Shown: one piece after another, positions 1 through 58,362 of the stretch
Layout of the letters: the number at the start of each line of letters is the position of its first letter
Numbering within the stretch: the first letter of the stretch is position 1
Assembly (NCBI GenBank): GCA_905178155.1
Contig: CAJINV010000005.1
Span: 2,792,054-2,856,053 of the forward strand
DNA length: 64,000 nucleotides
Source: Amoebophrya sp. A120
Taxonomy: Eukaryota > Protista > Dinoflagellata
Direction of reading: 5' to 3'
Made by a program: the position numbers and the translations under genes
The notes under the pieces: generated by a model
Database searches by the model: none
The model's input: only the letters and a program-made list of their open reading frames with translations
Told to the model about the DNA's origin: nothing

Positions 1-3000
1 AGCGCGGTTGTTACTCATGCTGCGCGCCAGGGGGGAGATTTACCGTCGGGTTTCTCTAGACATTTTCAACCTGCGCTGGGACCCGGTCGCGTTCGCGTTT
101 TTCGCAATGGAACTCGCGTTCCAATTTGCGCCCGACAACGACGACCGAATGGCGAAGCTGAATTTGGTGCAGCGGTTGATGGCCGGGTTCGAGGGACGGA
201 GGAGATGTTTCGGCTTCCGGGAATCGATTGTGGATGATTTGGTCCGCGAAAAGAGAGCAGCAAGTCGTGATAAGGACCTATCACAGCACCAAAATCTCCC
301 CGCCCGCCCCCTGCGCCTGAAACTCGCGTCCCCGTTCTGGGACGTGCTCGCCTTCGCTTGGGGTTTGCCAATGTACTTTGTCGAGGTTGCTCTCGATTGG
401 CAACGGGAGGAAGTTGCAAAGATCGACGAGGTCGAAAGGCGAATCGCGGATACCCCGGGAGCGTTAGTGAGCAAGAAAAGCGTACGGCTGCTGGAAAAGA
501 GGTGCAATTTGGTCTTTTGCAAGACGTTCCAAACGCCAAACAACGAGAACTGCAAGTGCGAAACCTGGTTTCCGAGCATATTAGCGGGAAGGAAATGGGC
601 GTCGACGTCGGCGTCGCACTCAACACAGCTCGCAACAACAGCAGCGCAGGCACAACTGATAACGCCAAACAAAATCTGCATCTTCGTGACCGATACACGC
701 CCGATCAACGTAGACCTTCGGTACATCACATCAGTTACCTCGACCGACGAGTGGTGGAGCTTGGCCTACGGTATCAATTTCCTCTACGCGAAGGAGCACG
801 ACTACCGGATAGAAAGGCATCTACGCAAGAGAAATTTACTGCACATGCACAAGAAAGTGCATCACAAGATATGGCAACGACCTCTACGAGAGCGAATCTG
901 TAGGTGTAATGCGGAATGAGGTTGAAGTAAATAAATTAAAAAAAAGTTTTGTCATGCCATTGCCACCATGTCTATCTCTATGTACATGCTGGAGTGCAGA
1001 AAAATATCCTGTGGATAGCACCGGGCGGAGTTGCACAAGGAAGTAGCGGACGGGAACGGGGAGACGGACAGCCTGAACCGCTGGAAAAACGACCCGAGCC
1101 GGAAGGTGGGCTGGGCGAAAATGAACATCATGCTCAGGCGGCTGCAGGAAATGGGCGAAAGCACGTGCGAGTACGGGGTTTCGATGGATAGCGACGCGTG
1201 GTTCAAGACGAATGAACCTCTGTCCAACATTGTGGACTACTTCATGAGGTTTTACTCGAAGCCGAGAACTAGTGGTGGTCCAGTCACGCGAGGGACGCCG
1301 GCAGAACATCAAAACCAAAATGTTCCACCCTCCGGTGAAAGTGAAATCGAAAAGCCTTCTGCTGGTCTTCCAAATCTCGTGCTGACCCCGATGCACGGCA
1401 ACGTCCAGTTCGTGAAGGACACCTATGCAGCACAACATGTTGCGGGAACATTTTCTACTACTCAACAAGAAAATCTTCATCCGAAATTATACGATTTCGT
1501 GAAAGCGGACCACGAGATCAAGTTTTTTATCGCTCAGGAGCTGGATGCGCACGCACCCGCGAAGGACCAGGTTGTTTGGAATGTGGACAAGAAAGACCCG
1601 CGGAACCGAAAGATTCTCTCCTTCGACGTGGAGTTGCAGGAGGAAGTGAAGGGCTTTGTTCCGAGAGAACAGGTGGAGCTGACGAAGGCACAGGAATATG
1701 TTGCTACGTCTATCGCGGAGGAACAAACGGTAACAACCGGATCAGCGGAGGAATCGTCGGGAGGAAGGACGAGGGGTTCTTCCGTAGAGGATGCTCTCTC
1801 AGGGGACCGGCAAGGCGAAGAACCCCGACGTGCAGAAGAAGATGAACAGGTACCGACTTTTCAACAAGCGCAGTCTTCGCCCTACCACCCGCAGTCGCAG
1901 TCTTCCTTCAAATCCCACGGCAGCCGGCGGGGTAACGGCGGGTTTTTCGTTGTGAAAAACGTTACAAACGGCCACCCCTGTTAACACAATCGGGGGGAAA
2001 TGCTTCCAATAATCCTCCGAAATCCTTCCAGCACCCGGCAAAGTTCGCGGCGCCCCAGCCCTGAGTGCAGCCGGGCGGCCTTCTTGTTTTTCTGCCCTGG
2101 GACAGGCAGCCCACCGCGGCAGGGTGGCGTAGACAGTCACAGTAGCCCGAGGCGTGGAGCGCAGCCGCTCGCTGTAGGGCTTGCGCCCCTTTGCCACCTT
2201 AAACCAGGGCCGGAAATCGGGCGAGTTGCGCCCCCTTGCCCCCTGTGTTGTGCACTACAGCGGAACGAACTTAACGAAAGGCCGAGGCAGGCTTCCCAGC
2301 AAGCCTGCCGCGCCCGGAGGGGGCCGGCCCGCGGCCTGAGAAGATGCTGCCGCCGGGCCGTAATGGGTTGCTTGTGGAAGGACCCGCGGCTCGCGGAGTG
2401 CGTCGCCAGCCGACAGCTGTCCCTGAAGAGGGCCAACAGAAAATCCTTCCGAAGGGACCGCCGGAAGGGCTTCCGGAATGCCCTCGAAAATCCTTCCCGA
2501 GGCTTCCGGAAATCCTTCCGGAATCCTTCCGAAATGCTTCCGAAATCCTTCCGAGATCCTTCCGCCGGCGGTATGGTCGACCCACCCTCCTGGGCGAAAG
2601 GGAAATCGAAAACTTTTTTTTTCTGAAAAAAGCAATTTGTAATGCGGCAAATGCTTCCGAAATGCTTCCGAAATCCTTCCCAAATCCTTCCGAAATCCTT
2701 CCCCTTATCCTGTTTCGCGGTCACAACTTTTTTGCTTCTCTTTTGCTTTTTTTTTTCGCCAAAAAAGCAGCTTCGCCTGGAAGGATTTCGGAAGGATTTG
2801 GGAAGGACTTTTCAGCCAAGGCGCCACTTTTTCGCCAGGCAGCGCGCGGCCTACCTCGCACACCTGCACCCGGCCGCCCGTCCGGCACCTGGCTACCTGC
2901 CTGGCCCGGAGTTCATTCTGGTTGTGCCCTTCCCCTCTGGTGTCCCAGCAGGCCACCTACAGGGCGCCGCCGAATGTGGGCAAGTTGCTTGGTGGGGCGG

Positions 3001-3813
3001 CGCATCTCGATAGGCATCGCCTCGCTTGCGATGTTTGATTGGCGCTTTTTGCGGTTCGTAGTGCCATGCGGCTCAAAAATTGAGCCCGGCGCTACGGCGC
3101 TCTTAAGTCTGTTCTCCGCCTGCAAATCGATGTGGCCGCAGCCACAATTGGCCCGACATAGATAGATGGCCCCACAGCTTCCAGGCTGTGGGCGCATTGA
3201 AAAGCTGGGGCGTTGAAAACATTTCGGAAGATTTTTGGAAGAATTTCCGCCGGCGGGGGAACGGCGGGTTTTTCATTGTGAAAAACGACGAGGAGGGGCG
3301 GGAAATTCTGAAGGCGTGGTACGATTCCGTGGACGAGTTCCCGGAGGAGCTCGGCGTATACAAAAACCGGCACTCGCAGGGCCTCAACCGGTGCTTCGAT
3401 ACGGCGGTGCGGGAAAAATACCAGCTATGCAATACAAATTTCCCGTACAACATGTACAAGATGCATCACAAATTTCGCCAGTTTGGGCGGATCTAACACT
3501 TGTCATGCTAAACTAGTTATCGAAGAACTGAACAGCTTTGATGTTATGCTGAGACTGCATCTGTACGAACGTGTACCTACGGAAAATTTGCTGTGGATAC
3601 CAGTCGAAAATCGCCTACGGGCCCCCGGAGTTTTTCACGGGGCCAAGGGCGAAGTTGGTAGAGCACAATTGGTTCAAGAAGCAGGACAAAATCCTGCCGG
3701 ACTTGAAGGAGAGGTTTCTGCAAAGGGTGCAGGCAAAGCTGGACTGCATCGTGTGCCACGAAAATTTTGGGGAGGCACTGGAAAAGATAGAATTCACGTA
3801 TTTTGATGCGTGA
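1..3813 (+). CDS. GT34-like (GMA12/MNN10-type) glycosyltransferase, multi-exon, probably 5'-truncated
   Basis: Motifs YAKEHDY, GWAK, DxD (MDSDAWF) and NGGFFIVKN...ILKAW. A continuous frame is obtained by removing 822-1022, 1962-3287 and 3426-3604; stop at 3813. Confidence 0.7.
822..1017. mobile_element. Degenerate introner-like hairpin element
   Basis: Flanked by gcatc/gcacc; degenerate inverted ends (right end tgtggata); removal gives ERHRAELHK in frame. Confidence 0.7.
1962..3248. mobile_element. 1.3-kb foldback-like insertion flanked by a 39-bp duplication of exon sequence
   Basis: Direct repeat 1923-1961 / 3249-3287 (2 mismatches); inverted repeats ~1996-2028 / 3217-3248; internal gaaatccttcc tandem arrays at 2440-2560 and 2650-2810. 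Confidence 0.8.
3426..3599. mobile_element. Introner-like element
   Basis: tat...ata ends, TSD ccagc/ccagt; removal gives KYQSKIAYG. Confidence 0.8.
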
Positions 3814-21217: not shown

Positions 21218-21968
21218 CAAGAGAAAGATGGCAGGCCAGAAACCACCGGCTGCAGGAGGAGGTGCGGTCTATTTCAGGTTGTAGCCCGTCGTGCCCCTGC
21301 AGCTGCGGGTAGTACAGCTGGGCCGCACGCGGATGATTTTCCACCTGGCGACACCGAGCACAGATTGACAACGCTTGCTTTCGTTTTCAAAGAAATAATG
21401 AACGACTTTCGCATACAACATGTACATGATGCTATGATCGCGACAGCCACAGTAGAAATCATATCCTCACTCGCCTCCGCATTTTGATTTTGGAAGCGCA
21501 ACTTCATCGAAGTGCTAGTATCGCTACAGAAGTTTTCCAAGTAGTGATAGACCTGCTCCCCTCCGCTTTGGAGGTCCTAGGGTTAATACTGGCTGTTCGA
21601 CTACATTGACGCACAAACACCTACACGCGGGACGGTATGGCAGGTCAAGTGACTCTTTGTCGACTGAATGGACGAACCTAGGCGGTCAACCTCTTTCCCC
21701 TTCGGTAAAGATGAAGATCTTGTCAAGGATGTGTAGGGTTCATGGAGATCAAAACAAAGAAGATGAAGATCTTCAACGACTCATTGTCGTTGCCACAGCC
21801 GCCACCTGCAGGAGTTGTGTTTATTTCTAGACTAGCAAGATGTCGAGGATCTGGTTCTTCTTCTCGCGTGTCAACCATAGCGCGGACACATGAAGCCCGA
21901 GGATGACCCTCCTGCACCTTTATGGCCAAGCTATTGCGCTCCTGCTGATACATAATCAACATACTAAG

Positions 21969-24900
21969 ATGAAAGTCCACACGGCCGCTTCAAGTTTTTT
22001 GCAGCTTTTGCTCTCCGTTTCTTTCACAATGAAGCTGCTTTTCGTCACGATGTTTTGCGTTTCCGTTTCGCCAGACTTCAATACTCACGTGGACTCCACG
22101 ACAAGGTCAGGTTCCCTGGTGTTTGTTTCCGGCGCATTTCTGCAGCAACCACCCTCACCCAAGCTAGCCAACACACCCAATCCCTGGGCGCTGATGCCAT
22201 CGGCAGGAGTGGCGCAGCACCATCACGGTAACCCAGCCTCATCGTCTGGCGCTCCTGCCCAGAATGAAAGAAACCCGCAGCACCACCTGAAACACGCCCA
22301 TCCCCAATCGACCAGCAGCGGGCACCAAGCTAAGTCCACGACCTCCTCTTCTCGCTCTTTACGAGGACATCAGCATCACCATTCCCACAAAAAGCAGGAG
22401 TCCAAGCGCGGTTTGACCGGTTGGCAGTTGAAATTTTGGAACTACAGTATGAACTGCAATAAATATGTCTGGGTCTGGAAGAATGCAAGGTTTGTCATGC
22501 ACATTTTGCATGACTCCTGATGTCTGTGATGCTTGCCCTAGCATCACAGATTTTGTGAGGGCTTCCTGATGCCTATATCGCATGAGAAATGCCCTCTCGC
22601 CCTGGCAAAAACTGAACCTCTTTTGCTGTTCATGCAATGCAGATTTTGGTAGAATTCAGACGCAGCATCACAAGTTTGAATCCTTCCAGGAGACCCAGAC
22701 ATATTTGCAATGCATATACAGGAATGGAGAGCAAAAAGTTCACACGGACGAGGTCCAGGATGCTGGACAGTTGTATCCTGTGCAAAAGTATCGTACTCGT
22801 ATTGCAGTCATGCATTACAAATCTTGTTCTTAAGCTAAATCCGCATGACAAATTCCATTTCACATGCTAAGGAAATTTGTAATGCGATTTATACTAGTAC
22901 GATACTTTTGCAGTTCATAAGTTGGAGTTGGAGACGATTCTCCAGTTTTTGGACAAGGGTGCGGAAGAGAAGGTGAAGAACTTTGCGCAGATGCGGGACC
23001 AGTTTCTGCGCATCACCCGGCACAGTCTCGTCCCGCTGGAGGACGATTATGTCTTGGGGAAGACGATAGAAACCGGGATGAACGGGGCCGTGCTGAAAGT
23101 GAAGCGAAAGCCGAAACCACCACTAGTACCCTGGCAGGAGGAGGAAAACAGAAGGGTCAAAGAGATCGATTTGATCAACGCGCGGGGGAAGCAGGCGGAG
23201 AAAGCTGGCGAGGATCAACTGCTGTCGTCCTCATCTCCAAGTCAGCTTGTGCAGCGGCGGCCGGCTGGCGCCGGAGCAGGCATTGCGTCTTCTTCTAGAA
23301 GCCCCGGTGGGGGCGTCGGTTTTTACACTAGTAGAGACCAGCAGTCCGCTCATCTAGACTGTTCGAATTACCGCAGCATCTCATGCGTTGCGAAAATATG
23401 CAGCAGGTTCAGTCGCGATGGAGTTCTTGCCGAATCTTCGAGCGAACAAGTTGGTGTTTCGGCGTCGTGCCAGCAACAGCAGCAGGAGCACGGCATTGGT
23501 CATGCGTATGCAACGCAGCAGCATAATAATAATTCCACCGAGGGTTACCGCCCCCTTGCGCAGTCGTCCCAGCAAAACAGCCCCTGCTCAGGACCCGGAA
23601 TTGCACCTAAAGAGGAGATATGGATTGCAAAAATGTCTGGGTCTGGAAGATTGCCAGATTTGTCATGCATGTTGTGCATTGGCCATGATGTCTGTGATGC
23701 ATGCCCTAGCATCACAGATTTTTTGAGGGTTTCGCGATGCCTATTCCGCATGACAAATGCCCTCTCCGCGTAGCAAAAATTGCATTCCCTTTGCTGCTCA
23801 TGCAATACAGATTTTTTTGGAATGCAAATTCAGCATCACAAGTTGCATTCTTCCAGACCCAGACATTTTTACATTTGATAGGAGATGGAGGAGCGGGAGT
23901 TGGAAGACCTTTCAAGCCTCTGCCACAGCCTCCTATGGCGTTCTCAAATGTTACATTCTCAACTGTTGCATGAATTTGTAATGCAAGAATAGCACAGGCC
24001 AGAGGGAAAACCCTGCGCGTCTTGCATTACAGATTTGGTGCGGATTCTAGTGCTATTTAGCCCTCCGAGAATTTGTCATGCGAAGCACCTTCGTCGTTTG
24101 GTGGCTCGTGGTCATTTTGCATGACAAATCATGTAACAGTTCAGAATGTAACGTTTGAGAACCCCATACCTCCAGGACATGTCATTTGTGGATGCTGGCG
24201 GTGCCAAAAACGACCATCAAACTCAAATGGCCAACGCCATCACCAGCGCGTCAAATTATACAAGGAATCAAACTCAAACACCTTGTGGAGGACAGCACGC
24301 GACCCTAGAATCTTCCTGCGCATCAAGCTCCACCTCGCCGTTGGCGCTACTCGGCGCCGGCCTGGGTGCCTCAACATGCAGCAAGATGAATCATTCCCCC
24401 GATAATTCAACCTCGAGTGCGGCCTCTACGATCTTGACCGGAAGCGCTTCGGGTAAAATCCAACATCCTGCTCCCATGCAGCCAAGCAACACAATAAACT
24501 CTGCTCCTCTTGTCGCGCGCCACGTGGGAAAGCATCGGAAGGTTTACGATCGGGAGAAATACCGGTCCGCCCCGGCGGATCCAGGACGAGAGGAGCTAGA
24601 TTTTGCGGAGGACGAGGTAGCGGAGGGCGAAAACGAGAATATAATTTCCTGCAGCGGTTCTCGTGAACAAGCAGCTGCGCTGCAGCAATCATATCCCTCG
24701 CAGCACATCGACATCATTGCGGGGAGTCTCGACGGCAGTGATAGTTTATTGATGGAAGAAGAAACCCAACATTCCTCTTTGTGTACTAGTTCATCTTCAT
24801 CTTCCGGCACAACTACAGGAGCAGCTGGTGGTCCTCCACATTGTGGTACTGTTAACACTCAAAACACTTCGCGTGCGGTTGACAGCACGTCGGAAGAGTC

Positions 24901-27900
24901 CGAGCAGGAATTCGCGATGAAGACTTTGAAATTGAAAATCAGCCGGAAACAGGAGCGAAAGTGGATGATGGAGCGGGACCCCAGGACGAACTGGCCGAAG
25001 CACCTATCCTACCGACAAACGGTGGTCCGAAGCTTTATGGCGTCCGCAAACGTTACATTCTCAACTGTTACAAACATGATTTGTCATGCAAAATGACCAT
25101 GAGCCGCAGGACAATCAAGCTGCTTCGCATGACAAATTATCGAAGGGCTAAACAGCATCTAAATCCGTGCCAGATTTGTGATGCAAGACTTGCAAGCCGT
25201 CCCCTTTCCCTATTGCTGTTTTTGCATGACAGATTCGTGTAACGACTGAAGAATGTAATGGCTGAGAACGCCATAAGCTTGTGGGCGGAGTTGCTGAGTA
25301 ACTTGAAGGTCGCGGTGCACATATGAATTGCAAATATGTCTGGGTCTGGAAGGATGCGAACTTGTCATGCGGATTCTGGAACAAGCAAAAATCTGTATTG
25401 CGTAGTCAGCAAAAGGTACGCGATTTTTGTCTCCAGAAGAGGGCATTTGTCATGCGGAATAGGTATGGAGAAGCCTCCACAGAGTTTGTCATGCTCTGTG
25501 TGCATTTCAGACCTTTTTGTAGATGTAGAAAATGCATGACAAATGTCTGATTTCCTCCAAACCCAGACATTTTTTGATTTGATAGCACATGTCGGAGTGC
25601 GATCGAGAATTCGAAGAGGAGGAAAGATTGCAGAGACAAGCGGAGGCGGTGAAACGAGAACAGCTGTTAGGGGCGTCGACGGGAAGCAGTTCTTCTTGCG
25701 CGTCCGCGTCAGGCGGTGGAGGTGGCGCGGCTTGCGTCAACACTCCTGCTGGTAGCTCTCATCCAAGCAGCTCCGGAGGACAGCTAGGTTTGTTGAGCGG
25801 GACCACCAGCAGCACCGCCCTACTAGGCAGTACAACTTCGAGCACTTCTACTGGAACAGCGGGCGCGTCGACATCCAGTACTTCGTTTCTAAAAATCCCG
25901 AAGGTTGGCTCCGCCGCTTCTCTTTCCACCATGGCGAGCTACTGGAACCACGGGTCCTCGTCGCGCGACCAGCTGAGCGGAGCCGCAGGCGATCTCGAGC
26001 AGGATTTTCCCTCCCCTGCGTCCACCATCGGCGGAACGTCCCCGTTCGGAGGACCACCACCTCCGGGTGGAAGCAGTGGCTATCGAAGATACGGTTCCCC
26101 CGATCGGCACTCCGCGTCACCAACCGGGACGACCGACGAGCAGGCTTTGGACGAGGTGGAGGAGGAAGCCGCTGAAATGGGGGCTGGTGCTAGTACTGCA
26201 GCAGGAGCTGCCCGACGGGCGTTCCAACTAGTACACGCGGCAAGAGGATCGGCGTCGTCTTCTCCGAAAAAGAATTATGCTGCAGGAGGCGTAGGTCTAG
26301 ACAAAGACAAACCTCCGCGACCTCCAACTGCTTCGGGAATGACGCATCTTCAAAGTCACCAGCAACTGTCGTCCTCCCAAGCTGAACTGCAGCAAGCGGC
26401 CACCAAAACAACGACCACCGGCGCAGGTATTGAAATGAGCCCGACCACAGTAACCGACGGGCGAGACGCAGACCCCAGCATTGCTAGCATTATTGCCCAA
26501 CCACCCTCAGCCTTGTTAACACCAGAAGACACAAAGACAAACGCACGAAATAATAAAAGTCTCCGAAATATGAAACGAAGAACCACGCTCCGCGGGCGCA
26601 TTCCGGACCTCGTGGATATCCGCGTGACGAACGACCGCGTGCACTTGATCTTCACGCTGTGCAAAGGTGGCGAGGCCGTGAAGACCCCCATCCCGGAGAT
26701 CGCCAGCGACGTCTGTGCCGCGAAATTTGCGAAACACTTCCTGGAAACGCTGGAGGTGTTGCACGACGAATTGGACATTATGCACCGGGACGTCAAGCCG
26801 GAAAACATCCTTTTCACCGAAAAAGACCGGAAACCCGACACGGCACAGCTGATCGATTTTGGGCTCGCGTGCCCCATCGCGAAGGGGCTGGGCTGCAAGG
26901 GTGCGGCGGGCACGATAGACTACGTCTCGCCGCAGCAGTTGTGGAACATTCCCGGGTTTGCAGAGTTCAGGCGGATTTTGGAAGACAGTACAACTTCTAC
27001 ATGCATTTTTGTTTCAAATTGTATCCTCGTATGTGCAGGTACTAGCATGAGCATGACGAGACTCTGCCTGCCTAGTCCTCCTGTGCTCTGCAACTACGCA
27101 GCTTGTGGCTTTTCTCATTCCATAGTACTACTTAACACATACAACAGAGCCACCAGTTCAATCTCTCGACGACGATCCAGCTTTGCACCCGGACCTCCTT
27201 CCCGAGGACACCACCAACAGCAAAACCACCCAACAAGACGCCACACACCAGCTCGAGGAGCAGCGGCACTGGCACTATAGCGAGAAATATCACGAGAAAA
27301 AAGTGTTAGAGTTAAGTACACATTTGTTGGAGTCTCTGCATCACAAATTTTCTCTGTGTGGCAAAACAGTAAGGAAACGAGGCTCCGAAGCATTTCCTGC
27401 ATGGGAAAGGTTGTCTCTGTTGCCAGTCTTGCATCACAATGTGTAACTGTAGCAATTTTTTCCTGTGATAAGAAAGGGGATCTCTTCGCGCTCGGCGCGG
27501 TTTTGCACCTCCTGCTCGAAGGCCGGTCCGCCTGGGACCGCACCTCCCGAATGCCGGCCCGCGCGGGAAGCACTTACGACCCGGCGGACAGGCTGCGCGA
27601 AAACTGCAAGAAGATTCAAACCTTCAAGGCGGACCGCCGACAGTACCACGAGATGGCCAGTTGCTTCGCGTGGACGAAGCGCTTGAGAAAAGCGCTGTCG
27701 AGCTTCCCGCTGGCGGGGGGGTGTGCGGGCGAGAAAACTGGTGCTGGTGGTGGAGGAGGCGGCGCAGCCGGGCGGGGGCTGCTGTCCGGATTGTCTTCTT
27801 CTTCCGCACGTGGTCCTCGCGGTGGATCATGTGGAATGAACATCATGAATAAACCTGGAAGTAGTAGAACCTCCGTCGATATCAAATGCAAAAATGTCTG

Positions 27901-30900
27901 GGTCTGGAAGATTGCTAGGTTTGTCATGCAGTTCTTCCATGACCCACGCGGTCTGGCATGCACGGCCTAGCATGCCAGGTTCTGTGAGATCTCTATCATG
28001 CCTTTCCTGCATGAGAAACTGCCTCTACTAACTTGTTAAAAAGTGGACCTCTTTTGGTAATCATGCAACACAAATTTTTCCACGATCCAGCTCGCTGCAG
28101 CATGACAAGTTACACTCTTCCAGACCCAGACATTTTTGCATTTGATAGTCGAAGATTGCGGGGAGTCGACGAGCACCTCTGTACAAATCGCGGAAGATGA
28201 AGCAGCGTGCTCTTTATCCAGGAAAAAACACCCCTCCACATCCAATTTGTCATGCATAACATACATAAAGTTCTGTGTTTGTCATGCAAAAAATGGATGT
28301 GGATGGGTTTTTTTTCTGTGGATACTCTTCCCTCCTCTCCTACTCAGCTTCGGCCACGGATGCGGCAAGTCGGGGTGGACAGCGCGCAGCTGGCGACGCA
28401 GCATCAAGAGCGAGAGCAGCAGCTGCTTCCTGTGCCGGAGCAGTGCCCTTGCCTCACCCACCAACCTGCCAGCTGTTTGGAGGTGCTGGGGTAGAAATGC
28501 AGCACGGAAGTACAACCAACGCATCCTCTCCCTGCAACGACTGCCACACTGAGGAAGTGATCGGGAACCTGCACAATACTGAGTATAATCATGCACCCTC
28601 TACGCACGGAACCATGCCAGTCCTGGATGAAAGGGACATTTCGTCCGTTTTCGAGATCACAAAGAAACAGCAGGAAAAGGAAGACGAAAAGCAAGTGATC
28701 GTGGAAGAACTTCTTCTGCATGAGAAGCAGCCCAGCCGGGCCACCGCCGAGAGCGACGGTAGTTTTTTCACACCCTGCACGTCTCCACAACACTTTGCGA
28801 AATTTATCGAGCAAAAATCTGTTATCGTTATCGAATTTGAAATTGCTGGCAAAGGCCAAATTTTTTTAAGTTTAGCTAGAGTGGGGTAGCAATGAAATCC
28901 TTATCCGCCCCCGCGGCGGATAAGCCGGGGGGGGGGCCCCCCCCGCCTTATCCGCCGGCGGGCGGTACCGGTATAGCCGCGACAAAGTGGCCGGGCGCCA
29001 CCATCGCCTGGAGGACCCGGACATGCCGAGAGCATCCGGCGTGTTGTGGGTAGATTTTGAAACACCACAAAGATCCATCGACGGCATGGCGCCGCCGGTC
29101 TTTGTGGTGTTTGTTTCTTTGAAAGTGGCAGGCGCAGCCCCTGAAGACTCCGCACTGCCGGGAGTACTTTGGACTCAAAAAAACTCGCCAACAGATATTT
29201 GCCACGCAAAAGGCGAAAAAGCTTGGGAAATTCGCCACGCAAGCAACGGCCCAACAAATAATAGCAAGCAACGGGCACACAGGGCCAGGGCCAGAACAAA
29301 CCTGCCCCACAGAATTAAACTCCTACCGTGTGCAGCGCGAGGGCCGCCGAGCTTCCTCGCTTATTTCCTTCGGGCTATGTACTTACTCGCCAGGCCATGC
29401 CGCCCTGCTCTTGGGCCGGCGCCCATGCCTGCAGGTAGCGACTTAGGGCCCGAAGCGAGAAGCGCAGCTGGCTAAAGGTTTTATCTTGCGCGCGCCCGCC
29501 TTCGGAGGAAGTGTGTCTGTGCAGACCCAAGCCGGCCGCCCGCTAGTATGGATTCCACCGCCTGCCTTTGCAATGGGCCCACGCACCCAAACAAGCCGCA
29601 ACAGCGCCTAAGGCTGCGCACCCAGAGTCCGCCTCCTTTAAATGTTGGGCGCCATCGGCGGTAAAATTCCCCCCGGTGGCGTGCTTGACTTATATTCCAC
29701 GGCGACAGGGCGAAGGCCTAGGCCGGGCAGCCATTAACTTCCTGGGCCCCGGGCCGGGCCGTGTCTGTTGGTGACATCTTTGCCGCAGCGCGAATAGTTA
29801 GCTTGCTTCCGCCGCGGCCATGTTTAAGGACTTGGGCCGCGTGGGCGGCAGCCTCGCGCGCTCTACTTTTGTTCGCCTGCTTTTTTCCTTGCCGCCGCCA
29901 GCCAATCAATGCGCCCTATCTTTCCGGCGTGGCACAAACGCCCGCCCGAAGTGATATGCGAAACAGGTCTCGGGGCCCAGTGCGTGCGGTTTTCTCGGTT
30001 CCCACTGCAGGCCCTCCCACTTCCCATCTCCCTCGGGCCCCAGTGGGGTTTCCCAACTGCACAGGCCCCGGGGCGGGCCCAGTGCGGCGGGCTGTGGCTC
30101 TGGGCAAGCCGCAGCCCGATTGCTACCCTACCAGCTACCGTCGCCGCGCTGGCTCACACACTCTCGACACCCCGGCCGCCACGCCACGCGGCACGCATTG
30201 CGCCAAGGCGCCGGGGCAGCAGCGCCGGGGCCCTGCGTGGGGCTGCGGGCTTGGTTGCTTGGGATTCCTTGCGTGGCGTGCTTTCGGCGCGAATTGGTAG
30301 CCGCTGGGGCCTGTGGGCAGCTTACAAACCCGGCGAGGTGCTTGCGCCTGCGACCAGACCCCGGCGGGCCTGTACGCGTGAAGCCTGGCGCCCTTGTTTG
30401 CGGGGCACGCTGCCGGGCTCGGTCTGTGTGTCTGCATCTATTGTTTGCAAGCAACGTGATGAAGCCCAGCCGGGCTCCTGTTGACAAACCTCCCAGACAG
30501 GCCCCGACATGCAAGGCCCGGGCTTCTATTGACAACCCCCCCCGCCAGCGAATTAAAATCCAGCGGGCGCATGCTAAACGAAAGCAAGAGGAAAATTGAA
30601 GTATTGGGGACGACAGGAACGCTGCTGCTATGCCGTTTTTCGGACTTTTCTATGCCTTTTGTCAGGGAAATTCAGTAAAAAAGAAAAACGCTTTTTATTT
30701 TCTTTGTGTGAATTCCCAAACCCAAAGCCACGGCTTTCCGCCTCGTTTTGCTCGCATGACAAAAACTGGCATGCCGTGTTTCTTTCCAATCCCGACGGTG
30801 CGACGTTTGGCAGCTTCCTGCGTATTACTTAAACCATAACCATAAGCACCAGCGGCGTGCTGTGTGTCGGCCCGGGGTCCCTCGGGCTCACCCAAAGGGC

Positions 30901-33465
30901 GCCGGGGCCGGGCCAGTTCATAGGGCCTATTGCGGGATGGCCCGCCGGCGGATAAGCCGGGGGGGGGCGCCCCCCGGCTTATCCGCCACGGGGGCGGATA
31001 AGGATTTCATTGTTACCCCACTCCTACTGACTTAGCTACCTCAACTAGCTATGATTTTGAACTACTTGTGTGCATTTGGTCAAGCGCCGCGCCGAAGCCT
31101 GGATCATGTCGAGCCCATTCTGCCGAACCGTTTTGAGCTGCGCGCCAACCCTCCCAGGTGGATGCGATTTGCTCAGCTTCCGGCAGTGCAAGCTGGAAGC
31201 TTGTTTTGGGCTCATAAAGATCGATTTGTAATGCGGACCTGCGTCTCAGGCGCGTCATGTTTTTGACATGGGAAAAGTGCTGCCGCGCCCACTGCATCAC
31301 GCAGATAGATGCCCAGAAGTGAGGCAGTTTAGGTGTGCTCTGGTTACCGGCCAGGGCCTCGGAAATCTGGCCAATTTGGCCAGCAAAAATGACCACTTTT
31401 CCGAAGCCTCCGGGCAAACCGATAACAAGCACCCTCTTTGCTCACTTTTATAGTCCGCGTGCCCCCGTGCTACGTCTCTGTTATCGGTTTCGGCTTGGCC
31501 ACCCCACCGAAACCGATAACAAGGCAGGGATTTGCTCAGTTTATCGTGCCCATGCCACCGTGATAAAAATCTGTTATCGGTTGCGCTTTTGGCATCGCGC
31601 CAAATCCAACCTTCGCAAAGTAGACCCATAAACTTGAGCTAGCCACGACCTGAGTCGGACTGTAAAAGTGGCCAAAAATGGTGCTTGTTATCGGTTTGGC
31701 CTTCTGAACCGATAACAGACACCTAAGCACGGTGGCACGCGGACTATAAAAGTGCCCAAAAATGGTGCTTGTTATCGGTTTTGCCGGAGGTCCGGCAAAA
31801 CGAGGGCACTTTTGCCCCCCAGAAAGGAGGTCCGGAGGGCCTCCGGACAACAAGCATCCCCCTTGCCCAAGAACATCCCCAAAGACACTAGGAAACAAGG
31901 ACGCTTACAGCTCTGCAAGCACTCCAAAAAGGAGTCCTTGTCAGCGCGCCGCCTCGCCAGCTTGGCGAGCGGATCGTCCTCGTCGATCTGCTTCTTCTTT
32001 GCCATGTCTATCAGCTCGCTCTTACACTCAAACCACCCTCCCCTCGCACTGACAGAAGACGCGTCGCCGCCTATCAGCTCGCGGACGTGCTTTGCAAGCA
32101 CTCGCAGCCACACTGTTTTGTTGGCGCAGTTGGCAAGACAGTATCGAGATCGGACGCGGAGTCTGGCCTGGGATGACTGCGCGACACCGAACCGGAACGC
32201 CGCCACCTCGAGATCCGCCGCGTCAAGTCTGCCGTCTCGTGCCCCAGAAGGATGACCAAATGCACACAATTAGGTCAAAATCATCATGACCGACGATAGC
32301 TACCTCACTAGATAATTTTAAAAAAATTTTCGCTTTCGTTTCAAATTCTTAATTCGATAACGATAACAGATTTTTTTTCACCCCCTGCACGTCTCCGCAA
32401 CACTTTGCGAAACTATTGCAGGAAAATCATCTTAGCGATGTCACTGGAGCGGACTGCAGTGTAGGTCCGGTAAATTTGTCAAACAGTGCAGGTGCTGGAG
32501 GAGCTTCTTGCATTTCTGCGTCTGCAACTGGTGCTTCTGGTTCTGCTGGTACAAGCAGAAGTCATCCAGGTGCTCCTGCTGCGTCCTCTTCAGCAACGAC
32601 ACTACAGCAGAATCAACAGCTCGACAAAAGAACGCAGGAGCAGTCACGACAGTCTTTTCTGAACCGACAGAAAAACACGAAGGTGGATCAGATGGCGCAG
32701 TTCTCAGACGATTCAGCATCTTCGGACTACGAGGCAATCGAGACCATGTATGGCGGGGGGCGACGTCGCGCTGGTATTAAAGGCGATAGGAACAAACGCA
32801 AAACCGATAGCAGGAATCCAGCAAATGAAATGACCGACACAAAAATGGAAGAGGCCGCGGCGCCGTCTTGCTCTACTACCGGCGAAACTGCAGCCCAAGG
32901 ACCCACAACATTGAAATTGATCCAGAACGACAACGATGATGAAAATATACAAGAGGTCTGCGAAGTAGACAACACCGACCCGCAGCAGCAATTGTGCAGT
33001 TACGTCGCTGGAACTACTACAAATGCGCCCGACGACCAATCCGACTCTGACAGTGAAGAACGCGAAAAACTCCGGATTCAGAACAAGGTCCTTGACGAAT
33101 CCCACCGGTACGCGCGGGAGCTGTTCGGGTTTCCGGGGGATCGGCGGCGAGACCACAACTTAACCCGTGGCGGCCGGAAACTTTGCCCGACCATGGCAAA
33201 CCGGCAGGTCGCGTGCAGCATCGTGGAATTCTACGCCTGCGGCGGCGTTCTGAGGTATCCCTACGAAAACGCGACACCCCTCGCGCAGGACTTCCTGGCC
33301 AAGTTGCTCACCGCGTTGGAGCAAGATCGGTTTTCAGCGAAGGAAGCGCTGCAACACCCCTGGATCACAACGATCGACTTCCGCGATCAGCAGTACCAGC
33401 GAAGCAAGAAGTTGCGGAAAAAATTCTCGAAGTTGAGGACAGTGTATGGCAGTAGAACGTCCTGA
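21969..33465 (+). CDS. Ser/Thr protein kinase (CAMK-like) with hydrophobic N-terminus and large low-complexity inserts
   Basis: Subdomains in order: LGKTIETGMNGAV, FAMK, LWAELL, HRDVKPEN, DFG, GTIDYVSPQ, YSEKGDLFALG, DRFSAKEALQHPWI. Nine introners, one unresolved intron near 26956-27125 and a 3.6-kb insertion. Confidence 0.85.
22448..22716. mobile_element. Introner family A (orientation Y)
   Basis: TSD tacag; family A TIR; removal gives WNYRNGEQK. Confidence 0.9.
22774..22919. mobile_element. Introner family B
   Basis: TSD agttg; TIR core tgcaaaagtatcgtact; removal gives AGQLELETIL. Confidence 0.9.
23619..23880. mobile_element. Introner family A (orientation Y)
   Basis: TSD ggaga; removal gives KEEMEERE. 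Confidence 0.9.
23934..24168. mobile_element. Introner family C
   Basis: TSD cctcc; TIR tatggcgttctcaaatgttacattct; removal gives HSLQDMSF. Confidence 0.9.
25036..25275. mobile_element. Introner family C (opposite orientation to 23934)
   Basis: TSD agctt; removal gives VRSLWAEL. Confidence 0.9.
25322..25584. mobile_element. Introner family A (orientation X)
   Basis: TSD gcaca; removal gives AVHMSECD. Confidence 0.9.
27288..27470. mobile_element. Introner family D
   Basis: TSD agaaa; tatcac...gtgata ends; removal rebuilds kinase subdomain IX, YSEKGDLFALG. Confidence 0.9.
27880..28147. mobile_element. Introner family A (orientation Y)
   Basis: TSD gtcga; about 30-bp perfect TIR; removal gives TSVEDCGE. 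Confidence 0.9.
28215..28324. mobile_element. 110-bp introner
   Basis: TSD ctctt; tatcca...tggata ends; removal gives AACSSLLSY. Confidence 0.85.
28879..31023. mobile_element. Nested non-autonomous TIR element with GC-rich ends
   Basis: About 85-bp TIR 28879-28963 / 30940-31023 built from cttatccgcc and ggcggataag units; no convincing ORF. Confidence 0.8.
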
Positions 33466-42400: not shown

Positions 42401-43345
42401 CCCGTCTTGCTAGTATTGTGTTATTGCCAATTTTATGCGAGTTATTCGTCCCGTTCCAATCTGCTTCGGCTCGGAGTCATGGTCTATTTTTTGCTGGATT
42501 GATTTTCCCCCGCCTGCACCTGCAATTGCATTCGGTCGTGCTCCGTGCACGCAGTAAAATAATGTCATGATTCGTAAACATTGAGTCAGTTCAACATGGA
42601 GCCCCTAGAGGTACGATATTTTCGTGCAGGTTGCAAAAGCCTGCGCGACTTTTTTCTGGCATTTTTCTATTGTCTTTTTCCTACGCAAGAAGGTTCTGAC
42701 AAATTTTCAGAAAGAAGAGGATGCGCAGGTCGCCGCAAGTCCAAAGCACATCAACCGTGTGCTGCTGCTGCTCGGGCGGTACTCGTCTACAAACGACGGT
42801 CGAGGACCAAAAGCGGGGTCGGGGACGCAAGAGTGATGTCATACCGCAAAGAAATCCTCCTCGTGCTTCCCATCGTAGTGTGCTCGCGATCAAGAGTTTA
42901 TGTTTTAAACGGTCGTTAGCATACAGAAGGGTGAATTCCCAGTGAATTTGTATTGCGTGGCATGATGCATGAATTAATCAGGTGCATGCGAAGAACACGG
43001 GGACAACATACAAGAAGCCAGCGCGCCGTGTTGATGGGCTGCTTGGCTGGTGGCGCTTCCCTCCTGTGGACGCTTGCCGCTTGTTGCCCAAAGTGGCGCA
43101 CCTGGTGGACTGCGAAGCAACGCAGGTGGCTTGTGGCGGTCTTACAACACGACGCTGCATGATCCGCCGACTCGATAGTGGCGGATCGACCGGGACGAGG
43201 GCCATGCCTGAAAAGGTGGCCAAATGTACTAGCTCAACATGTCAAAATAGAGAAGTCGCGTCACGGGTTGTGGCTGCCTCGGCTTGGATATCTGAAGACA
43301 GGTTGCTACGGATGCTAGCATCGCCTGCTTTGCTCTGTAAGTAAC
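28965..43345 (+). repeat. Near-identical 7190-bp tandem duplication (28965-36154 / 36156-43345), likely assembly artefact
   Basis: All ORFs recur at +7191; the junction is a single N at 36155; only one difference was noticed (near 36104 / 43295). Confidence 0.9.
31051..32284. mobile_element. Nested TIR element with a 15-16-bp flanking duplication
   Basis: TIR atgattttga...gtgtgcatttggtca 31051-31082 / 32253-32284; direct repeat tagctacctc(a)actag at 31033-31048 and 32297-32311; internal aaccgataac repeats in both orientations. Confidence 0.7.
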
Positions 43346-44088
43346 CTCTTCCCAGCTGTGTTCCTGCCTCATCTTGGTCGGTTCCTCTAGTAGTCTTCTT
43401 TGACGTGACCCCCAGGTCAGGAATTCTCTTGGTGAATTTTGGGGCTTTTTCTTTTTGTTAAACTTTTTGGAAGCCCCAAAACCCGGAGTTTCTCACGCGC
43501 TAGCGAATTTTGAAAATGAGCCGGAGGCCAAAATTCACCGGCGCCCTTTTCAAAATTCACCCCAAAACTCACCGGGCGCCCCTTTTCGACCGTGATACGC
43601 AAACTTTAGCGCAGAAAAGTGCTCAAAAAAGTGCACAGATAGGCCATGAGAAGGAACGCAAAGGGGGGAAAAGCGGAGTCCTCTGCTGCCCTAAGCCCGT
43701 CTGTGTTCTGCTGAAAATGCCGCAAGATTTCACGCGCCTGCCGGAAAAATGCTTCAAAGCTCTCGGTCGGGTCCTTTCGTCCTTGCCTGCCTTCTTGCTT
43801 AGTTGTATGCGCTTCGCAGCCTTTATTTCTGGCGTCCTTGCCGCGGCTGCTGCAGTGCTCTTCTGCGAGAACGGGGAGGCGCAAAAATCTGCCCAAAGAA
43901 CGGCGCCCGGGCCATGTCCTCTGGCTGCCCACTGCACAAAAGCCCGCGGCTGCTGCGCGGTGCAGGGCCTTCTACTTCCCAGAACAGGGCCAAGAGGGAC
44001 AATGTCCCGGCGGGCTCATCTGCAATTTGGCATGCAAAATCCACTACAAATTCACCACTTCTCATGCTAACGGGTGTTAAAGCTCTAG
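42888..44088 (+). mobile_element. 1.2-kb TIR element between duplicated gene starts (arm 1)
   Basis: Ends cgttagcatacagaag...cttctcatgctaacg; flanked by about 60-bp repeats at 42821-42887 and 44089-44150. Confidence 0.8.
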
Positions 44089-44150
44089 GCAAGAGTGATG
44101 TCATACCGCAAAGAAATCCTCCTCGTGCTTCCCATCGTGTGCTCGCTTAT

Positions 44151-45341
44151 TTAGAGCTTTAACGCCCGTTAGCATGAGAAGTTGCGAATTTGTAGCGAAT
44201 TTTGCATGACAAATTGCAGGTGGGTCCGCCGGTACATTGTCCCTCTTGCCCTTCTGGGAAGTGGGTTCTGCACACCGCAGAAGTCAAGGCTTATGCGGCG
44301 GGCAGCTTCTAGACATGGCCTGGGTGCCGTTCTATGGCCATGCCCATTCGTCTCCCTGTGCTCGCATAAGAGCACTGCAGCAGCCGCGGCAAAGACGCCA
44401 AAAAGAAAGGCTGCGAAGCGCATGCAATTAGGCAGGAAGGCGCAAAAAAAAGGGTGAAAGGACCAGGCCGAGAGCTTTGACGCGTCTATCCGGCAGGCGC
44501 GTGAACTTTCCAGGCCTCTTCGGCAGAATATAGAGGCGCTGAGGGCAACAGAGGGCGCTTGTCTTTTCCCCTGCTCGGCCCCACTTCCCAGGGCCTATGT
44601 GCGGACATTCTTAAGCACTTTGCTGCGCTGAAGTTTGCTTATCACGGTGGAAAAGGGGAGCCCGGTGAATTTTGGGGTGAATTTTGAAAAAAGTGCCGGC
44701 GAATTTTGGCCTACGGCACTTGTTCAAAATTCGCTGGCGCATGAGAAACTCCGGGTTTTGGAGCTTCAAAAAATTTTCGCAAAAAGAAGAAGCCTCAAAA
44801 TTCACCAAGAAAATTCCTGACCTGGAGGTCTCGCCAAAGAAGACTAGAGGACCCGACCAAGATGAGGCAGGAACACAGCTGGGAAGAAGTTACAGAGCAA
44901 AGCAGGCGAAGCTAGCATCCATTGCAACGCGTCTCCAGCTATCCAAGCCGAGACAGCAACAACCCGTGACGCGACTTCTCTATTTTGAGATATTGAGCTA
45001 CTGCCCCTGCCCCCCTTTCCAGGCATGGCCCTCCCTATCGATCTGCCACCATCGCGTCTGCGGATCAACATGCAGCATCGTGCTGTAAAACCGGCGCCAC
45101 AAGCCACCTGTGTTGCCTCGCAGTCGCTAGGTGCGCCCCGGTGGGCAACAGGCGGCAAGCGTCCACAGGAGGGCAGCGTCACCAGCCAGGCGGCCCATCA
45201 ACACGGCGCGCTGGCTGCTTGTTTTCCTCGTGTTCTTCGCATGATGCACGTGATAGATTAGTTCATGATGCATTGCCACGCAATACAAATTCACTGCAAA
45301 ATCACCCTTCTGTATGCTAACGCCCGTCCAAGGCATAAGGT
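44151..45341 (-). mobile_element. Inverted, diverged second copy of the 1.2-kb element (arm 2)
   Basis: Reverse-complement similarity to 42888-44088 along its length; followed by a third repeat copy at 45342-45409. Confidence 0.8.
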
Positions 45342-45356
45342 GGGGACGCAAGAGTG

Positions 45357-48300
45357 ATGTCATACCGCAGAGAAATCCTCCTCGTGCTTCCCATCGTGTG
45401 CTCGCTTATCACTTCAGAATTTCTCGTCCCCGCACAAGTTCACCTCTCGTCCCCGTCAGAAGCCGGGATATTAAAAACCCCAACCCCGCCCAACGAGACC
45501 CTCCTCCTCCGCCCTTCCGGCACCCCGAAGCAGCGGCCGGTGCAATGTTTTGCGCATTCGGAGTTGACGTACCGTATCAAATGCAAAAATGTCTGGGTCT
45601 GGAAGGTTGGAACTTGTGATGCTAACTTTGGATATATAAAAAAATCTGTATTGCATGACCAGCAGGAGGAGTCCTGTTTGTGCTACGCGGGGAGGGCATT
45701 TGTCATGCGGGATGGGCATCAGGAAGGCCTCTAAAAATATGTGATGCTAGATCATGCATTACAGACATCCCGAGTCATGCAAAATATGCATGACAAACCT
45801 GGTAACCTTCCAGACCCAGACATTTTTACATTTGATATACCAACGGTGCTGTCAACAGCGGCAGGAGCACTGCGTCTCCACGCTGTCCGACCCTGCGTTT
45901 TTCTACAAGGCCTGCTGCGAAGACCGGTACCTATCAAATGTAAAAATGTCTGGGTCTGGAAGATTTTGAGGTTTGTCATGCATATTTTGGAAGACTCATG
46001 ATGTCTGTGATGCATGCGCTAGCATGACAGATTTTTGGAGGCCTTTGTGATGCCTCTACCGCATGAGAAATGCCCTCCCCGGGTAGCACAAACTGGAGTT
46101 CTGTTGCCGGTCATGCCATGCAAATTTTTTTAGAGTCCAGAGACAGCATCACAAGTTTAGAATCTTCCAGACCCAGACACTTTTGCATTTGATAGTACCT
46201 CGCGGTCAACGACGTTCCCGCGCACCTGGGAAATCTCGTCATATCCTGTGCAAAAGTGTCGTACTCGTATAAATGCAAGTCTTGCATTACAAATCTTTAT
46301 CGTAAGGGAAATCCGCATTACAAATTTTCTCTCTTATGCTGAGAAAATTTGTAATGCATTTATACGAGTACGATACTTTTGCAGTTCACACGTCACCGCG
46401 CTGGTCGATATGGCATACATCGCGAAGCAAACAGACAGGATACTGTTGGCGCCAGTGGACAAAAAACTCTTTGGCCCGGTGTTCAGCGATTTACGAGACT
46501 GGTATAATCGCAACGGGGGCGCGCCGGATCTTCATGCTGGTAGTTCGCATTCTGTCGGCAGCGACAAGGGTAAAAATAATATCAACGTCGAAAGGCTGAT
46601 AGATGACGGTCTCTCCGAAAGCGATCCTGCAGCGCTGTGGCAGTTTCTGCGAAAAGCTAAAACATCATTGCAAAAGGGAACTGCAGCAACCGAGCACGGA
46701 GCAAACCAAGAGCAGGAGCGTCAGGAGGCCCTTTATTGGGCGAAGCGACTGTATAGGAAGCGATTTCGAGAGCGGGCTGATGTGAACCCCTTGGTGAGCC
46801 TGGTCGGTCAGAGACCAAAAACTAGCGAACAGGCGCATCATAATAATCATCCTGCCGGTGCAAACAGGACGGCAGAAGGCAGACTTGAGGCAGCACAAGC
46901 AGCACGCTCGTCGACCAGCGGCCGTGGTCCTCGAGGAACCTACAGAGAAGCGGCACCCCTTCATTATCAAGCTCTCAAGGATCTCCCCGTGACCGCAAGC
47001 AATCTGAGAAAGCTCGCCCTCGCCTACGAGCAGAAAACCCAGAGGTTCCGTGCGGTGATTGGCCGGTCTTTTTTCAAGCTCGGCTGCCCGCAACTCCCCG
47101 TGGTCGACATCGCGGGCGGGGGTCGGGAGGGTCCGTTTCGCTTCGCCTTAGATCAACAGGGCGCCGAAACCAGTCCGGCGAAGCTGATTTTGATTTATCA
47201 GGGTTTGTACCACGATCACTCGCTGGACACGATCATGCAGCTGCACGGTAAAAAACAAATTCTCGCGGACAAAAAGACCAAAACCATGCTGGAGAATTTT
47301 CCGACGAAAATCTCCAGCAAGAGAAGTAGAGGCTCTACTACTTCAAAGAGGACTACTGGAGATCATGTTGAAGTAGACGTCGACCCGGATGAAGATGATT
47401 TTAATTCCTCAGACGAAGACACGGAAACGCAAAAGATTTCCTTCTCCGGCCACTTTCCGGATAACTACCCCGTGGGCGGAAGGGAGGAGATATCCACTGC
47501 AAAAGTATCTCACGACTGGCATCGGTTGCATACATACTGTATGAACCAGTTGCAATACAGCAATACAAATTTCATTTTTCCTAAATGTAAATCTGCAACC
47601 ACCACGCAAACCATAGCTAGTACAACGGCACTTTTGCAATGCATAGGAGACCATTGCACGCATGGAGAAGAAGATGGAGGAGGAGCAGAAGCTCGCGGAG
47701 AAGGATACTGAATACGACAGGACGATGAAGTCGCGGATTGACGAGATGGAGCTCCACTACATGCTCTTACGGGACCGGTGGGTCGCGAGATTTCCGCAAG
47801 TCGTCAGATTAACCGGCGAGGACGCAATTACTTTCTGGGATGAGATGGAGAAACCGATCCGATATCCTCGCGGAAATGACCAGAGCGGCGGCAATGAAAA
47901 CGTGCAATTCCTGAAAAGAGCGATACTACGGAAGTACGAAGCGCTGTATACTTCGCAAATAAATGCTTCATCAGCAGAGGCAAGACAAAAGTTCTATCAC
48001 CTACTCTTCCACTCCAACCCCCCTGTTTCTCAGCTGAGAAATCTCTACCGCTTTCTGTACCACGACGACGCCGCGCCGTCGAGATTGTTACCTCCTGGGT
48101 TGGTCAAACCATTTCTGGTTTCCGAGTGCGGGAGTCCGGATTACGGAGAGAGTGGAAACTCGGTCGCTTTACTGAAATACGCGGAACGGCAGAACGAGTT
48201 TCTTTTTGGACATCAAGCAAATTTTCTGCAAACCGCTGCAGAAGAAGACGCGAGCAGAAATCACATGAAACGAGTGCGACACCGCGAACACGGAGCAAGT

Positions 48301-58249: not shown

Positions 58250-58362
58250 CAATCCACCGTTTGAAGTTGGTTCGAAAAAGGCAATCCGGCGTTTGAAGTT
58301 GGTCCAAAACTGGCAATCCGCCGTTTGAAGTTGGTCCAAAAGTGGCAATCCGGCGTTTGAAA
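58250..58362 (+). repeat. Tandem repeat of about 33 bp (gcaatccggcgtttgaagttggtccaaaa), 3-4 units
   Basis: Direct reading of the sequence. Confidence 0.8.

What the first reader, a model, noticed from the sequence alone, without database searches (positions are those of the whole stretch)
28763..32412. 3.6-kb insertion in a kinase exon flanked by a 40-bp coding duplication with only synonymous differences
Seen: FFTPCTSPQHFAK is encoded twice (aca/acc, cca/ccg), with a 25-bp perfect TIR just inside. Removing the insert and one copy (3610 nt) restores the frame to the last kinase subdomain. Established: cut-and-paste TSDs are normally only about 2-15 bp. Inference: a separate class of long-duplication intron or element, removed by homology-guided RNA joining or DNA recombination.
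Basis: partly seen in the sequence, partly recalled or inferred. Interest (0 to 1): 0.8.

Follow-up and report, generated by a model that had tools for sequence, protein, structure and literature searches.

The report
Hairpin intron with long exon duplication
A 3.6-kb transposon-like insert in a kinase exon of the parasite Amoebophrya is flanked by a 40-base copy of the exon instead of the 5 bases seen at its neighbours, likely the scar of a one-ended insertion, and the published gene model removes it near the edges of its predicted hairpin and leaves nine extra amino acids, which would show where this organism's unexplained splicing cuts.

Summary
The repeat is real: 40 bp, 2 synonymous differences, spacing 3610. 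The window is Amoebophrya A120. The insert is a ~1.43-kb element related to A120 introners, carrying a nested 2.1-kb element. Its left end is intact; its right end lacks 8-9 bp, shown by a second copy. The transcript-based gene model removes 3583 nt (TT..CC), not 3610, and keeps 27 nt of copy 2, so in-register homology joining fails here. The cuts lie near mirror positions across the predicted stem. Three more TA-ended 1.2-1.3-kb elements in the window have 39-70-bp duplications, while 10 of 10 short introner introns follow a 5-bp rule. In one of the three the model does keep a single copy. Best reading: one-ended insertion finished by host repair, rescued by hairpin-guided splicing. I saw no RNA reads across the junction. 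The scan's earlier notes hold related cases in other genomes (hairpin introns in dinoflagellates; an 87-bp-duplication insert in Ostreococcus), none in this one. New variant of a known kind.

The parts
21903..33465 (+). Host Ser/Thr kinase gene, A120 model GSA120T00012245001 / CAD7950166.1 (1934 aa); 9 introner introns, 1 GT-AG intron and this insert
   Evidence: Pkinase hits
28763..28802 (+). Duplication copy 1 (codons FFTPCTSPQHFAK); wholly exonic in the gene model
28803..32385 (+). Intron as modelled: 3583 nt, TT..CC (or 28804-32386, TT..CT); no other solution fits the protein
28804..28878 (+). Intact left end of the outer element (TTAT start; fits the A120 TAT-N7-AAA motif from 28805); holds the 25-bp perfect arm 28813-28837
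28879..31023 (.). Nested 2145-bp TIR element (GAG..CTC ends) with an ordinary 3-bp CTA duplication; 'PIF/Harbinger-like' is a recalled label
   Evidence: relative in L001 near 2530-2757
31027..32375 (.). Body and right arm of the outer element (core 1424 nt in all); right terminus lacks 8-9 bp and joins copy 2 in a T-run
32373..32412 (+). Duplication copy 2; 32373-32385 intronic, 32386-32412 (9 codons) exonic in the model
1923..3287 (+). Second coding case: 39-bp duplication (1923-1961 / 3249-3287) around a 1287-bp TTA-ended insert whose right TIR is short by about 34 bp; model removes 1326 nt and keeps one copy; the A25 orthologue has one copy
42821..45409 (.). Third and fourth cases: two inverted ~1.19-kb elements (about 82% alike; 42899-44087 and 44152-45337) with intact TA ends and no 5-bp TSD, set between three copies of a 62-70-bp stretch

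Best explanation
The insert is a TIR element related to the Amoebophrya A120 introners, with one intact end, one end short by 8-9 bp and a 40-bp exon duplication, that likely inserted by one end only, with host repair likely joining the other end about 40 bp upstream, and that is likely cut from the mRNA at positions set by its paired arms rather than by the duplication. Shown: the anatomy, the truncation, the nested element, and the junction of the published model (3583 nt, non-canonical, nine extra residues in a poorly conserved linker). Inferred: a transposase joined the left end; the right end was trimmed and annealed at the shared T-run, duplicating the target; a second element later inserted in the left arm; the arms pair in the pre-mRNA; the 5' cut falls at the intact left end and the 3' cut near its mirror position, although the terminal ATA and the 5-bp TSD are gone there; insertions whose product stays in frame survive.
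For: One end normal, the other truncated: a second copy (L001, 92% over 377 nt) shows the full terminus. The same asymmetry holds at 1923-3287, where the A25 orthologue has a single motif, so the duplication is tied to the insert. A T-run lies in both the TIR and the target at the junction. The same anatomy (one normal end, one often truncated end, long host duplication in place of 5 bp) is reported for one-ended HIV integration (PMC5041404, passages), and one A120 introner family is noted as Ginger, '5-bp TSD, TA/TA termini' (PMC12130899 supplement). Splicing: the only junctions that fit P0005 are 28803-32385 and 28804-32386. A120 models were built from transcript alignments (PMC7789003 section 25). 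The copies share at most 15 exact bases, so an assembly shortcut between them is unlikely (inference). In-frame GT-AG options exist (such as 28781-32369) and the model does not use them. The arms are predicted to pair over about 80 bp, -76.5 kcal/mol (no shuffle control). 10 of 10 short introner introns in the two models remove element plus 5 nt; here the removal is the full-length element plus 4 from the TAT start.
Against: I saw no RNA read or contig across the junction; the splice rests on one published protein model, and that pipeline keeps the longest ORF, which would favour 3583 over 3610 if both exist. The mirror rule is approximate: removal minus full-length element is +4 here and +7 at the second case counted from TA, or +2 and +5 counted from TTA, never +5 at both. 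The second case fits in-register joining equally well. Elements X1 and X2 have long duplications with both ends intact, which one-ended insertion allows but does not predict. 6 of 7 ends of the long elements have T outside the TA against 6 of 30 ends of 15 hand-picked short ones (Fisher p=0.002), which hints at a separate family. The two bases after copy 1 (TT) match the start of a second tandem unit without any mutation, whereas this model needs one more T/C change. The far flank of the L001 copy is not on its contig.
Confidence: 0.5

Rival explanations
1. A distinct class of TTA-ended 1.2-1.4-kb elements makes long, variable duplications as its normal mode of insertion, as IS1549/IS1634 do in bacteria; the truncated ends are later erosion. 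Removal from RNA is still hairpin-guided.
For: 4 of 4 TA-ended TIR elements over 1 kb have 39-70-bp duplications and none shows a 5-bp TSD. X1 and X2 have both ends intact. T outside TA at 6 of 7 ends against 6 of 30. Bacterial precedent 8-514 bp, mechanism unknown (PMC2266710, passages).
Against: Only four insertions from three families with no blastn or tblastx similarity between families. No transposase found: 0 of 7 ORFs of the main insert reach a Pfam cut-off. 2 of 4 have a truncated end. Two more long-duplication inserts (14940-16571, 16655-17900) show no TIR, which points to a repair process that does not care about element type.
Confidence: 0.22
2. A 39-bp in-frame tandem duplication existed first in this linker; an ordinary introner with a 5-bp TSD landed at the junction of the two units, and a 13-bp deletion between T-runs later removed the TIR tip and the TSD.
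For: Removing 28805-32375 leaves an exact 13-codon tandem repeat with no extra mismatch. Both copies would then have been coding, which explains synonymous differences. The region is a poorly conserved linker: the A25 kinase matches the 363-residue query only at residues 270-332.
Against: Needs an insertion within 1-2 bp of the unit junction. Does not explain the second case (conserved motif, single in A25) or X1/X2. With a strict +5 rule the 13-bp deletion would shift the frame (3584).
Confidence: 0.18
3. One reading: the insert and one copy are removed by in-register homology joining of RNA, or by DNA recombination between the copies.
For: 3610 nt restores the frame. At the second case the model removes insert plus one copy exactly, and the 10 short introner introns also lose exactly one repeat copy.
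Against: The model at this locus is out of register by 27 nt. The kinase model joins across the insert with only 1 shared base at the junction.
Confidence: 0.07
4. The duplication or the junction is an assembly or annotation artefact.
For: A 7190-bp scaffolding overlap starts inside the insert at 28965. One DNA-like run shows no depth at 29279-30252.
Against: The copies differ at 2 of 40 positions, the right end has an independent relative, the nested element has a clean 3-bp TSD, and three other cases lie in the window.
Confidence: 0.03

Closest known systems
Amoebophrya A120 introner elements / non-canonical introns (Farhat et al. 2021, PMC7789003; abstract, sections 10-12, 16, 25, 32 and a supplement search)
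   Same: Same organism; TAT-N7-AAA start; inverted ends; non-canonical junction 1-2 nt from the left end; no transposase found.
   Different: Direct repeat about 40 bp rather than 3-5 nt; right end truncated; 3.6 kb. That study surveyed repeats of 3-8 nt and introns up to 1 kb only. Removal leaves 9 extra codons rather than restoring the exon.
A120 introner families of Gozashti et al. 2025 (PMC12130899; passages and all 58 A120 rows of supplement file 8)
   Same: TIR DNA elements creating introns; some of about 1.1-1.6 kb (fam103, fam135, fam86); fam38 noted as 5-bp TSD with TA/TA termini.
   Different: Listed TSD lengths are 2-6, one 11, one manual 8-9, or not assigned; none is long. Whether my elements belong to a listed family could not be tested, as the rows give no sequences.
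One-ended (aberrant) retroviral integration (PMC5041404, passages)
   Same: One normal end, the other often truncated, host duplication much longer than 5 bp, second end inserted by host enzymes.
   Different: Drug- or mutant-induced in HIV, duplications often hundreds to thousands of bp; here natural, 39-70 bp, and spliced out in the model.
SOS splicing (Zhao et al. 2025, PMC12779559; abstract and passages)
   Same: TIR pairing triggers removal from mRNA at non-GU-AG sites near the repeats, leaving indels that are tolerated in poorly conserved regions.
   Different: Shown in C. elegans and human cells and imprecise. A120 short introners are removed exactly in the models. AKAP17A, CAAP1 and RTCB were not looked for in A120.
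IS1549 / IS1634 long variable direct repeats (PMC2266710, passages)
   Same: Long, variable duplications around TIR elements.
   Different: Bacterial, autonomous DDE elements; no homology shown here.
Repair-type insertions with direct repeats: Ostreococcus transgene with 518-bp duplication (PMC8002553, passages); Daphnia neointrons with 4-12-bp repeats (PMC4202315, passages); dinoflagellate IRIB repeats of 2-11 bp (PMC5032977, passages)
   Same: Target duplication around an insert or intron.
   Different: No TIR element with one intact end; the intron cases are short-repeat and largely canonical.

Membership tests
Amoebophrya introner element (Farhat 2021) | Inverted repeats at both intron ends | tested here: met
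   25-bp perfect, about 130-bp imperfect arms; right tip missing 8-9 bp
Amoebophrya introner element (Farhat 2021) | A120 end motif TAT, 7 nt, then at least 3 A | tested here: met
   Left end from 28805 and the L001 end
Amoebophrya introner element (Farhat 2021) | Direct repeat of 3-5 nt at the boundaries | tested here: not met
   40-bp duplication, no 5-bp TSD; so not filed as a standard member
Amoebophrya introner element (Farhat 2021) | Repeated element | tested here: met
   Second copy at 92% in another assembly; copy number in the A120 genome not measured
Amoebophrya introner element (Farhat 2021) | Non-canonical splice junction supported by RNA | tested here: inconclusive
   Published transcript-based model gives TT..CC; no reads seen across it
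Ginger DNA transposons | TGTNR termini and 4-5-bp TSD | tested here: not met
   Ends are TA/TTA; definition from PMC2836005 passages
Ginger DNA transposons | Integrase-like transposase | tested here: inconclusive
   None found in 7 ORFs of the insert; a non-autonomous element would have none
IS1549/IS1634-type long-repeat elements | Long variable direct repeats | tested here: met
   39-70 bp at 4 of 4 TA-ended elements over 1 kb
IS1549/IS1634-type long-repeat elements | IS4-like DDE transposase | tested here: not met
   No Pfam hit at cut-off in 7 ORFs of the main insert; other inserts not scanned
SOS splicing substrate | Removal depends on pairing of the inverted repeats | not testable with these tools
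   Pairing only predicted
SOS splicing substrate | Non-GU-AG junction near the repeats leaving an indel | tested here: met
   Model junction TT..CC with 27 extra nt
SOS splicing substrate | Needs AKAP17A, CAAP1 and RTCB | not testable with these tools
   No genome held

The most novel reading that the evidence does not exclude
Amoebophrya carries a eukaryotic class of TTA-ended 1.2-1.4-kb TIR elements that routinely insert with long, variable target duplications (39-70 bp), as IS1549/IS1634 do, and survive in exons because a U1-independent, SOS-like system cuts them out by the geometry of their hairpin alone, needing neither the terminal bases nor a TSD, so that each such insertion can stamp a short in-frame peptide duplication into a protein.
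Probability: 0.22. Interest if true: 0.78.

Novelty: new variant of a known kind. Interest (0 to 1): 0.56.

Why it matters
How Amoebophrya removes its non-canonical introns, with no U1 snRNA detected, is open (PMC7789003). At ordinary introners the 5-bp repeat hides the true cut sites: 6-8 positions fit at each. Here the repeat is displaced, so only two positions fit, and the 3' cut lies in exon sequence with no terminal ATA. Such loci are natural mutants that separate a hairpin-ruler model from a repeat-pairing model using RNA-seq that already exists. Long-duplication insertions would also be a route to short peptide duplications in a lineage noted for fast protein evolution. I found no report of them in A120 in paper searches, the Farhat sections and supplement search, or the 58 A120 rows of the Gozashti table; subscription papers are not covered and supplement figures were not visible.

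Tried and rejected
No genome is held, so no genome-wide count was possible. No RNA holder was listed. Three raw RNA runs under the same species label laid only 13-119 partial reads on shared repeats and none on the exons; this says nothing on expression. Run X7 behaved like low-depth DNA, and none of the 15 joints shown crossed the insert, with 92 not shown. The four best-holding runs remain unexamined at this junction. Direct protein searches missed the A120 kinase; it was reached through a cluster look-up. The third 25-mer was rejected as an independent copy. My first reading of 31051-32284 as a second nested element with its own ~25-bp repeat was dropped; it is the body of the outer element. 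The idea that element ends resemble the reverse complement of their targets failed: 766-1655 of 2000 shuffles scored as high in all 8 tests. The 165-codon minus-strand ORF at 31772-32269 gave no Pfam hit at cut-off and no Atlas hit of 0.8 or more. The automatic TA..TA catalogue gave 23 candidates in the window, 10 with an exact and 3 with a one-mismatch 5-bp TSD, the other 10 mis-bounded or chance; in L001 1 exact and 1 near of 9, so hand-bounded ends were used. Counter-examples among long inserts: the nested 2.1-kb element has a 3-bp TSD and the repeat-rich stretch 57250-58520 shows no long flanking repeat; 6 of 8 stretches over 1 kb examined have one. The 3610-nt solutions came from too short a test window and vanish. 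Target-primed reverse transcription was considered (recalled hallmarks: truncated end, variable duplication) and set aside, as the elements have TIRs and I saw no tail at the intact ends.

Full report
Observation. The direct repeat is at 28763-28802 and 32373-32412, 38 of 40 identical, spacing 3610. The differences are ACA/ACC and CCA/CCG. The 25-bp inverted repeat is at 28813-28837 and 32351-32375. The longest direct repeat in 20 block-shuffles was 22 nt. Removing 3610 nt restores the frame, but so do 3571 nt and 3583 nt. A third match of the 25-mer lies in a 7190-bp repeat at 99.986% identity joined at the single N, which I read as a scaffolding overlap.

Organism and context. The gene matches, exon by exon, the Amoebophrya sp. 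A120 protein GSA120T00012245001 / CAD7950166.1. A120 is known for non-canonical introns with inverted ends and 3-5-nt direct repeats, starting TAT-N7-AAA, with no U1 snRNA detected (PMC7789003 sections 10, 11, 16). Of the 11 junctions tested in this kinase, 9 are such introners, 1 is GT-AG and 1 is the insert. With one more from the neighbouring gene, 10 of 10 introner introns remove the element plus 5 nt; 9 have an exact and 1 a one-mismatch 5-bp TSD.

Anatomy. The insert holds a nested 2145-bp element (28879-31023) with a 3-bp CTA duplication. Without it the outer element is 1424 nt with arms that align over about 130 nt. The one metagenome-collection match to the 25-mer (L001) is a second copy of the right end, 92% identical over 377 nt, inserted in another gene. 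It ends in a terminus nearly identical to the window's left end, so the window's right end has lost 8-9 bp. The join to copy 2 falls in a T-run present in both the TIR and the target. The far flank of the L001 copy is off its contig. None of 7 ORFs in the insert reached a Pfam cut-off, and the Atlas gave nothing for one of them.

How it is removed. The A120 protein reads FFTPCTSPQHFAKCTSPQHFAKLLQ. With long flanks required to match, only 28803-32385 (TT..CC) and 28804-32386 (TT..CT) fit, both 3583 nt. The models come from transcript alignments because canonical tools failed (section 25). The copies share at most 15 exact bases, so I infer the junction was in the reads; this is not shown, and the pipeline prefers the longest ORF. 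The 5' cut is 1-2 nt before the TAT; the 3' cut is 2-3 nt past where the missing end would lie. In-frame GT-AG options such as 28781-32369 are not used. The arms are predicted to pair. This matches the reported hallmarks of SOS splicing: non-GU-AG sites near paired repeats, small indels, rescue in poorly conserved regions (PMC12779559, abstract and passages). Since most of both copies is coding, synonymous differences need no special mechanism, and two of them are weak evidence anyway (P 0.046-0.12).

Other cases. At 1923-3287 a 39-bp duplication (one synonymous, one V/I difference) flanks a 1287-bp insert with the same asymmetry. The A25 orthologue has one copy, with I. The A120 model removes 1326 nt in register and keeps copy 1. 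At 42821-45409 two related 1.19-kb elements with intact TA ends and no 5-bp TSD sit between three copies of a 62-70-bp stretch. Two inserts without recognisable TIRs also have long flanking repeats (41-50 bp; 86 bp or more), while the nested element and the stretch at 57250-58520 do not. So 6 of 8 stretches over 1 kb examined, and 4 of 4 TA-ended TIR elements among them, have long duplications. The three TA-ended families show no similarity to each other. T lies outside the TA at 6 of 7 long-element ends against 6 of 30 ends of 15 hand-picked short elements.

Mechanism. Best supported (0.5): one-ended insertion finished by host repair, then hairpin-guided removal from RNA. The anatomy is that described for one-ended HIV integration (PMC5041404, passages), and one A120 introner family with TA ends and 5-bp TSD is filed as integrase-related in the Gozashti table, although Ginger's own TGTNR ends are not met. 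Rivals: a class that makes long duplications by design, as IS1549/IS1634 do (0.22); a prior tandem duplication plus ordinary insertion plus 13-bp deletion (0.18); in-register homology joining or DNA excision (0.07); artefact (0.03). The RNA-level part is firmer than the origin part.

Novelty. Farhat et al. surveyed repeats of 3-8 nt and introns up to 1 kb. The 58 A120 families of Gozashti et al. list TSDs of 2-6, one 11 and one manual 8-9, or none. Paper searches returned no report of long-duplication introners; other papers in those lists were seen as listings only, the Polarella preprint as part 1 of 4 and the Sleeping Beauty paper as passages. Supplement figures (Farhat S19-S25) were seen as legends only and may bear on the cut-site geometry. 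The parts are each known; their combination, and the unmasked cut sites, are what is new. Verdict: new variant of a known kind, interest 0.56.

Noticed in passing
window 28965-36154 and 36156-43345: 7190-bp repeat at 99.986% joined at a single N; likely a scaffolding overlap that starts just after a G/C hairpin and duplicates the kinase's last exon in the assembly.
   Followed up: partly
window 14644-14909, 16572-16654, 17898-18161: The 3' end of a gene recurs in pieces around two inserts of about 1.6 and 1.25 kb that have subterminal repeats but no clear TIRs.
   Followed up: partly
window 42821-45409: The thrice-repeated 62-70-bp stretch includes an ATG followed by a hydrophobic, signal-peptide-like run, so these insertions appear to duplicate a gene start.
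   Followed up: partly
window 31772-32269, minus strand: 165-codon open frame in the element body, partly present at 92% DNA identity in L001; no family match.
   Followed up: partly
window 3426-3599 and protein P0007: A 118-aa protein from another assembly, 96% identical, reads straight through this introner position, which suggests a close strain with an empty site.
   Followed up: no
L001 1-3720: About 13 introners of the same families in 3.7 kb of one gene, one with a nested relative of the 2.1-kb element's ends and a TTA duplication.
   Followed up: partly
window 57250-58520: Repeat-rich, transposon-like stretch with short tandem subterminal repeats and no long flanking repeat found.
   Followed up: partly
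window 21903-33465: The kinase domain is split by several hundred residues of low-complexity linker between the catalytic loop and the last subdomain, in A120 and in the A25 relative P0003.
   Followed up: no
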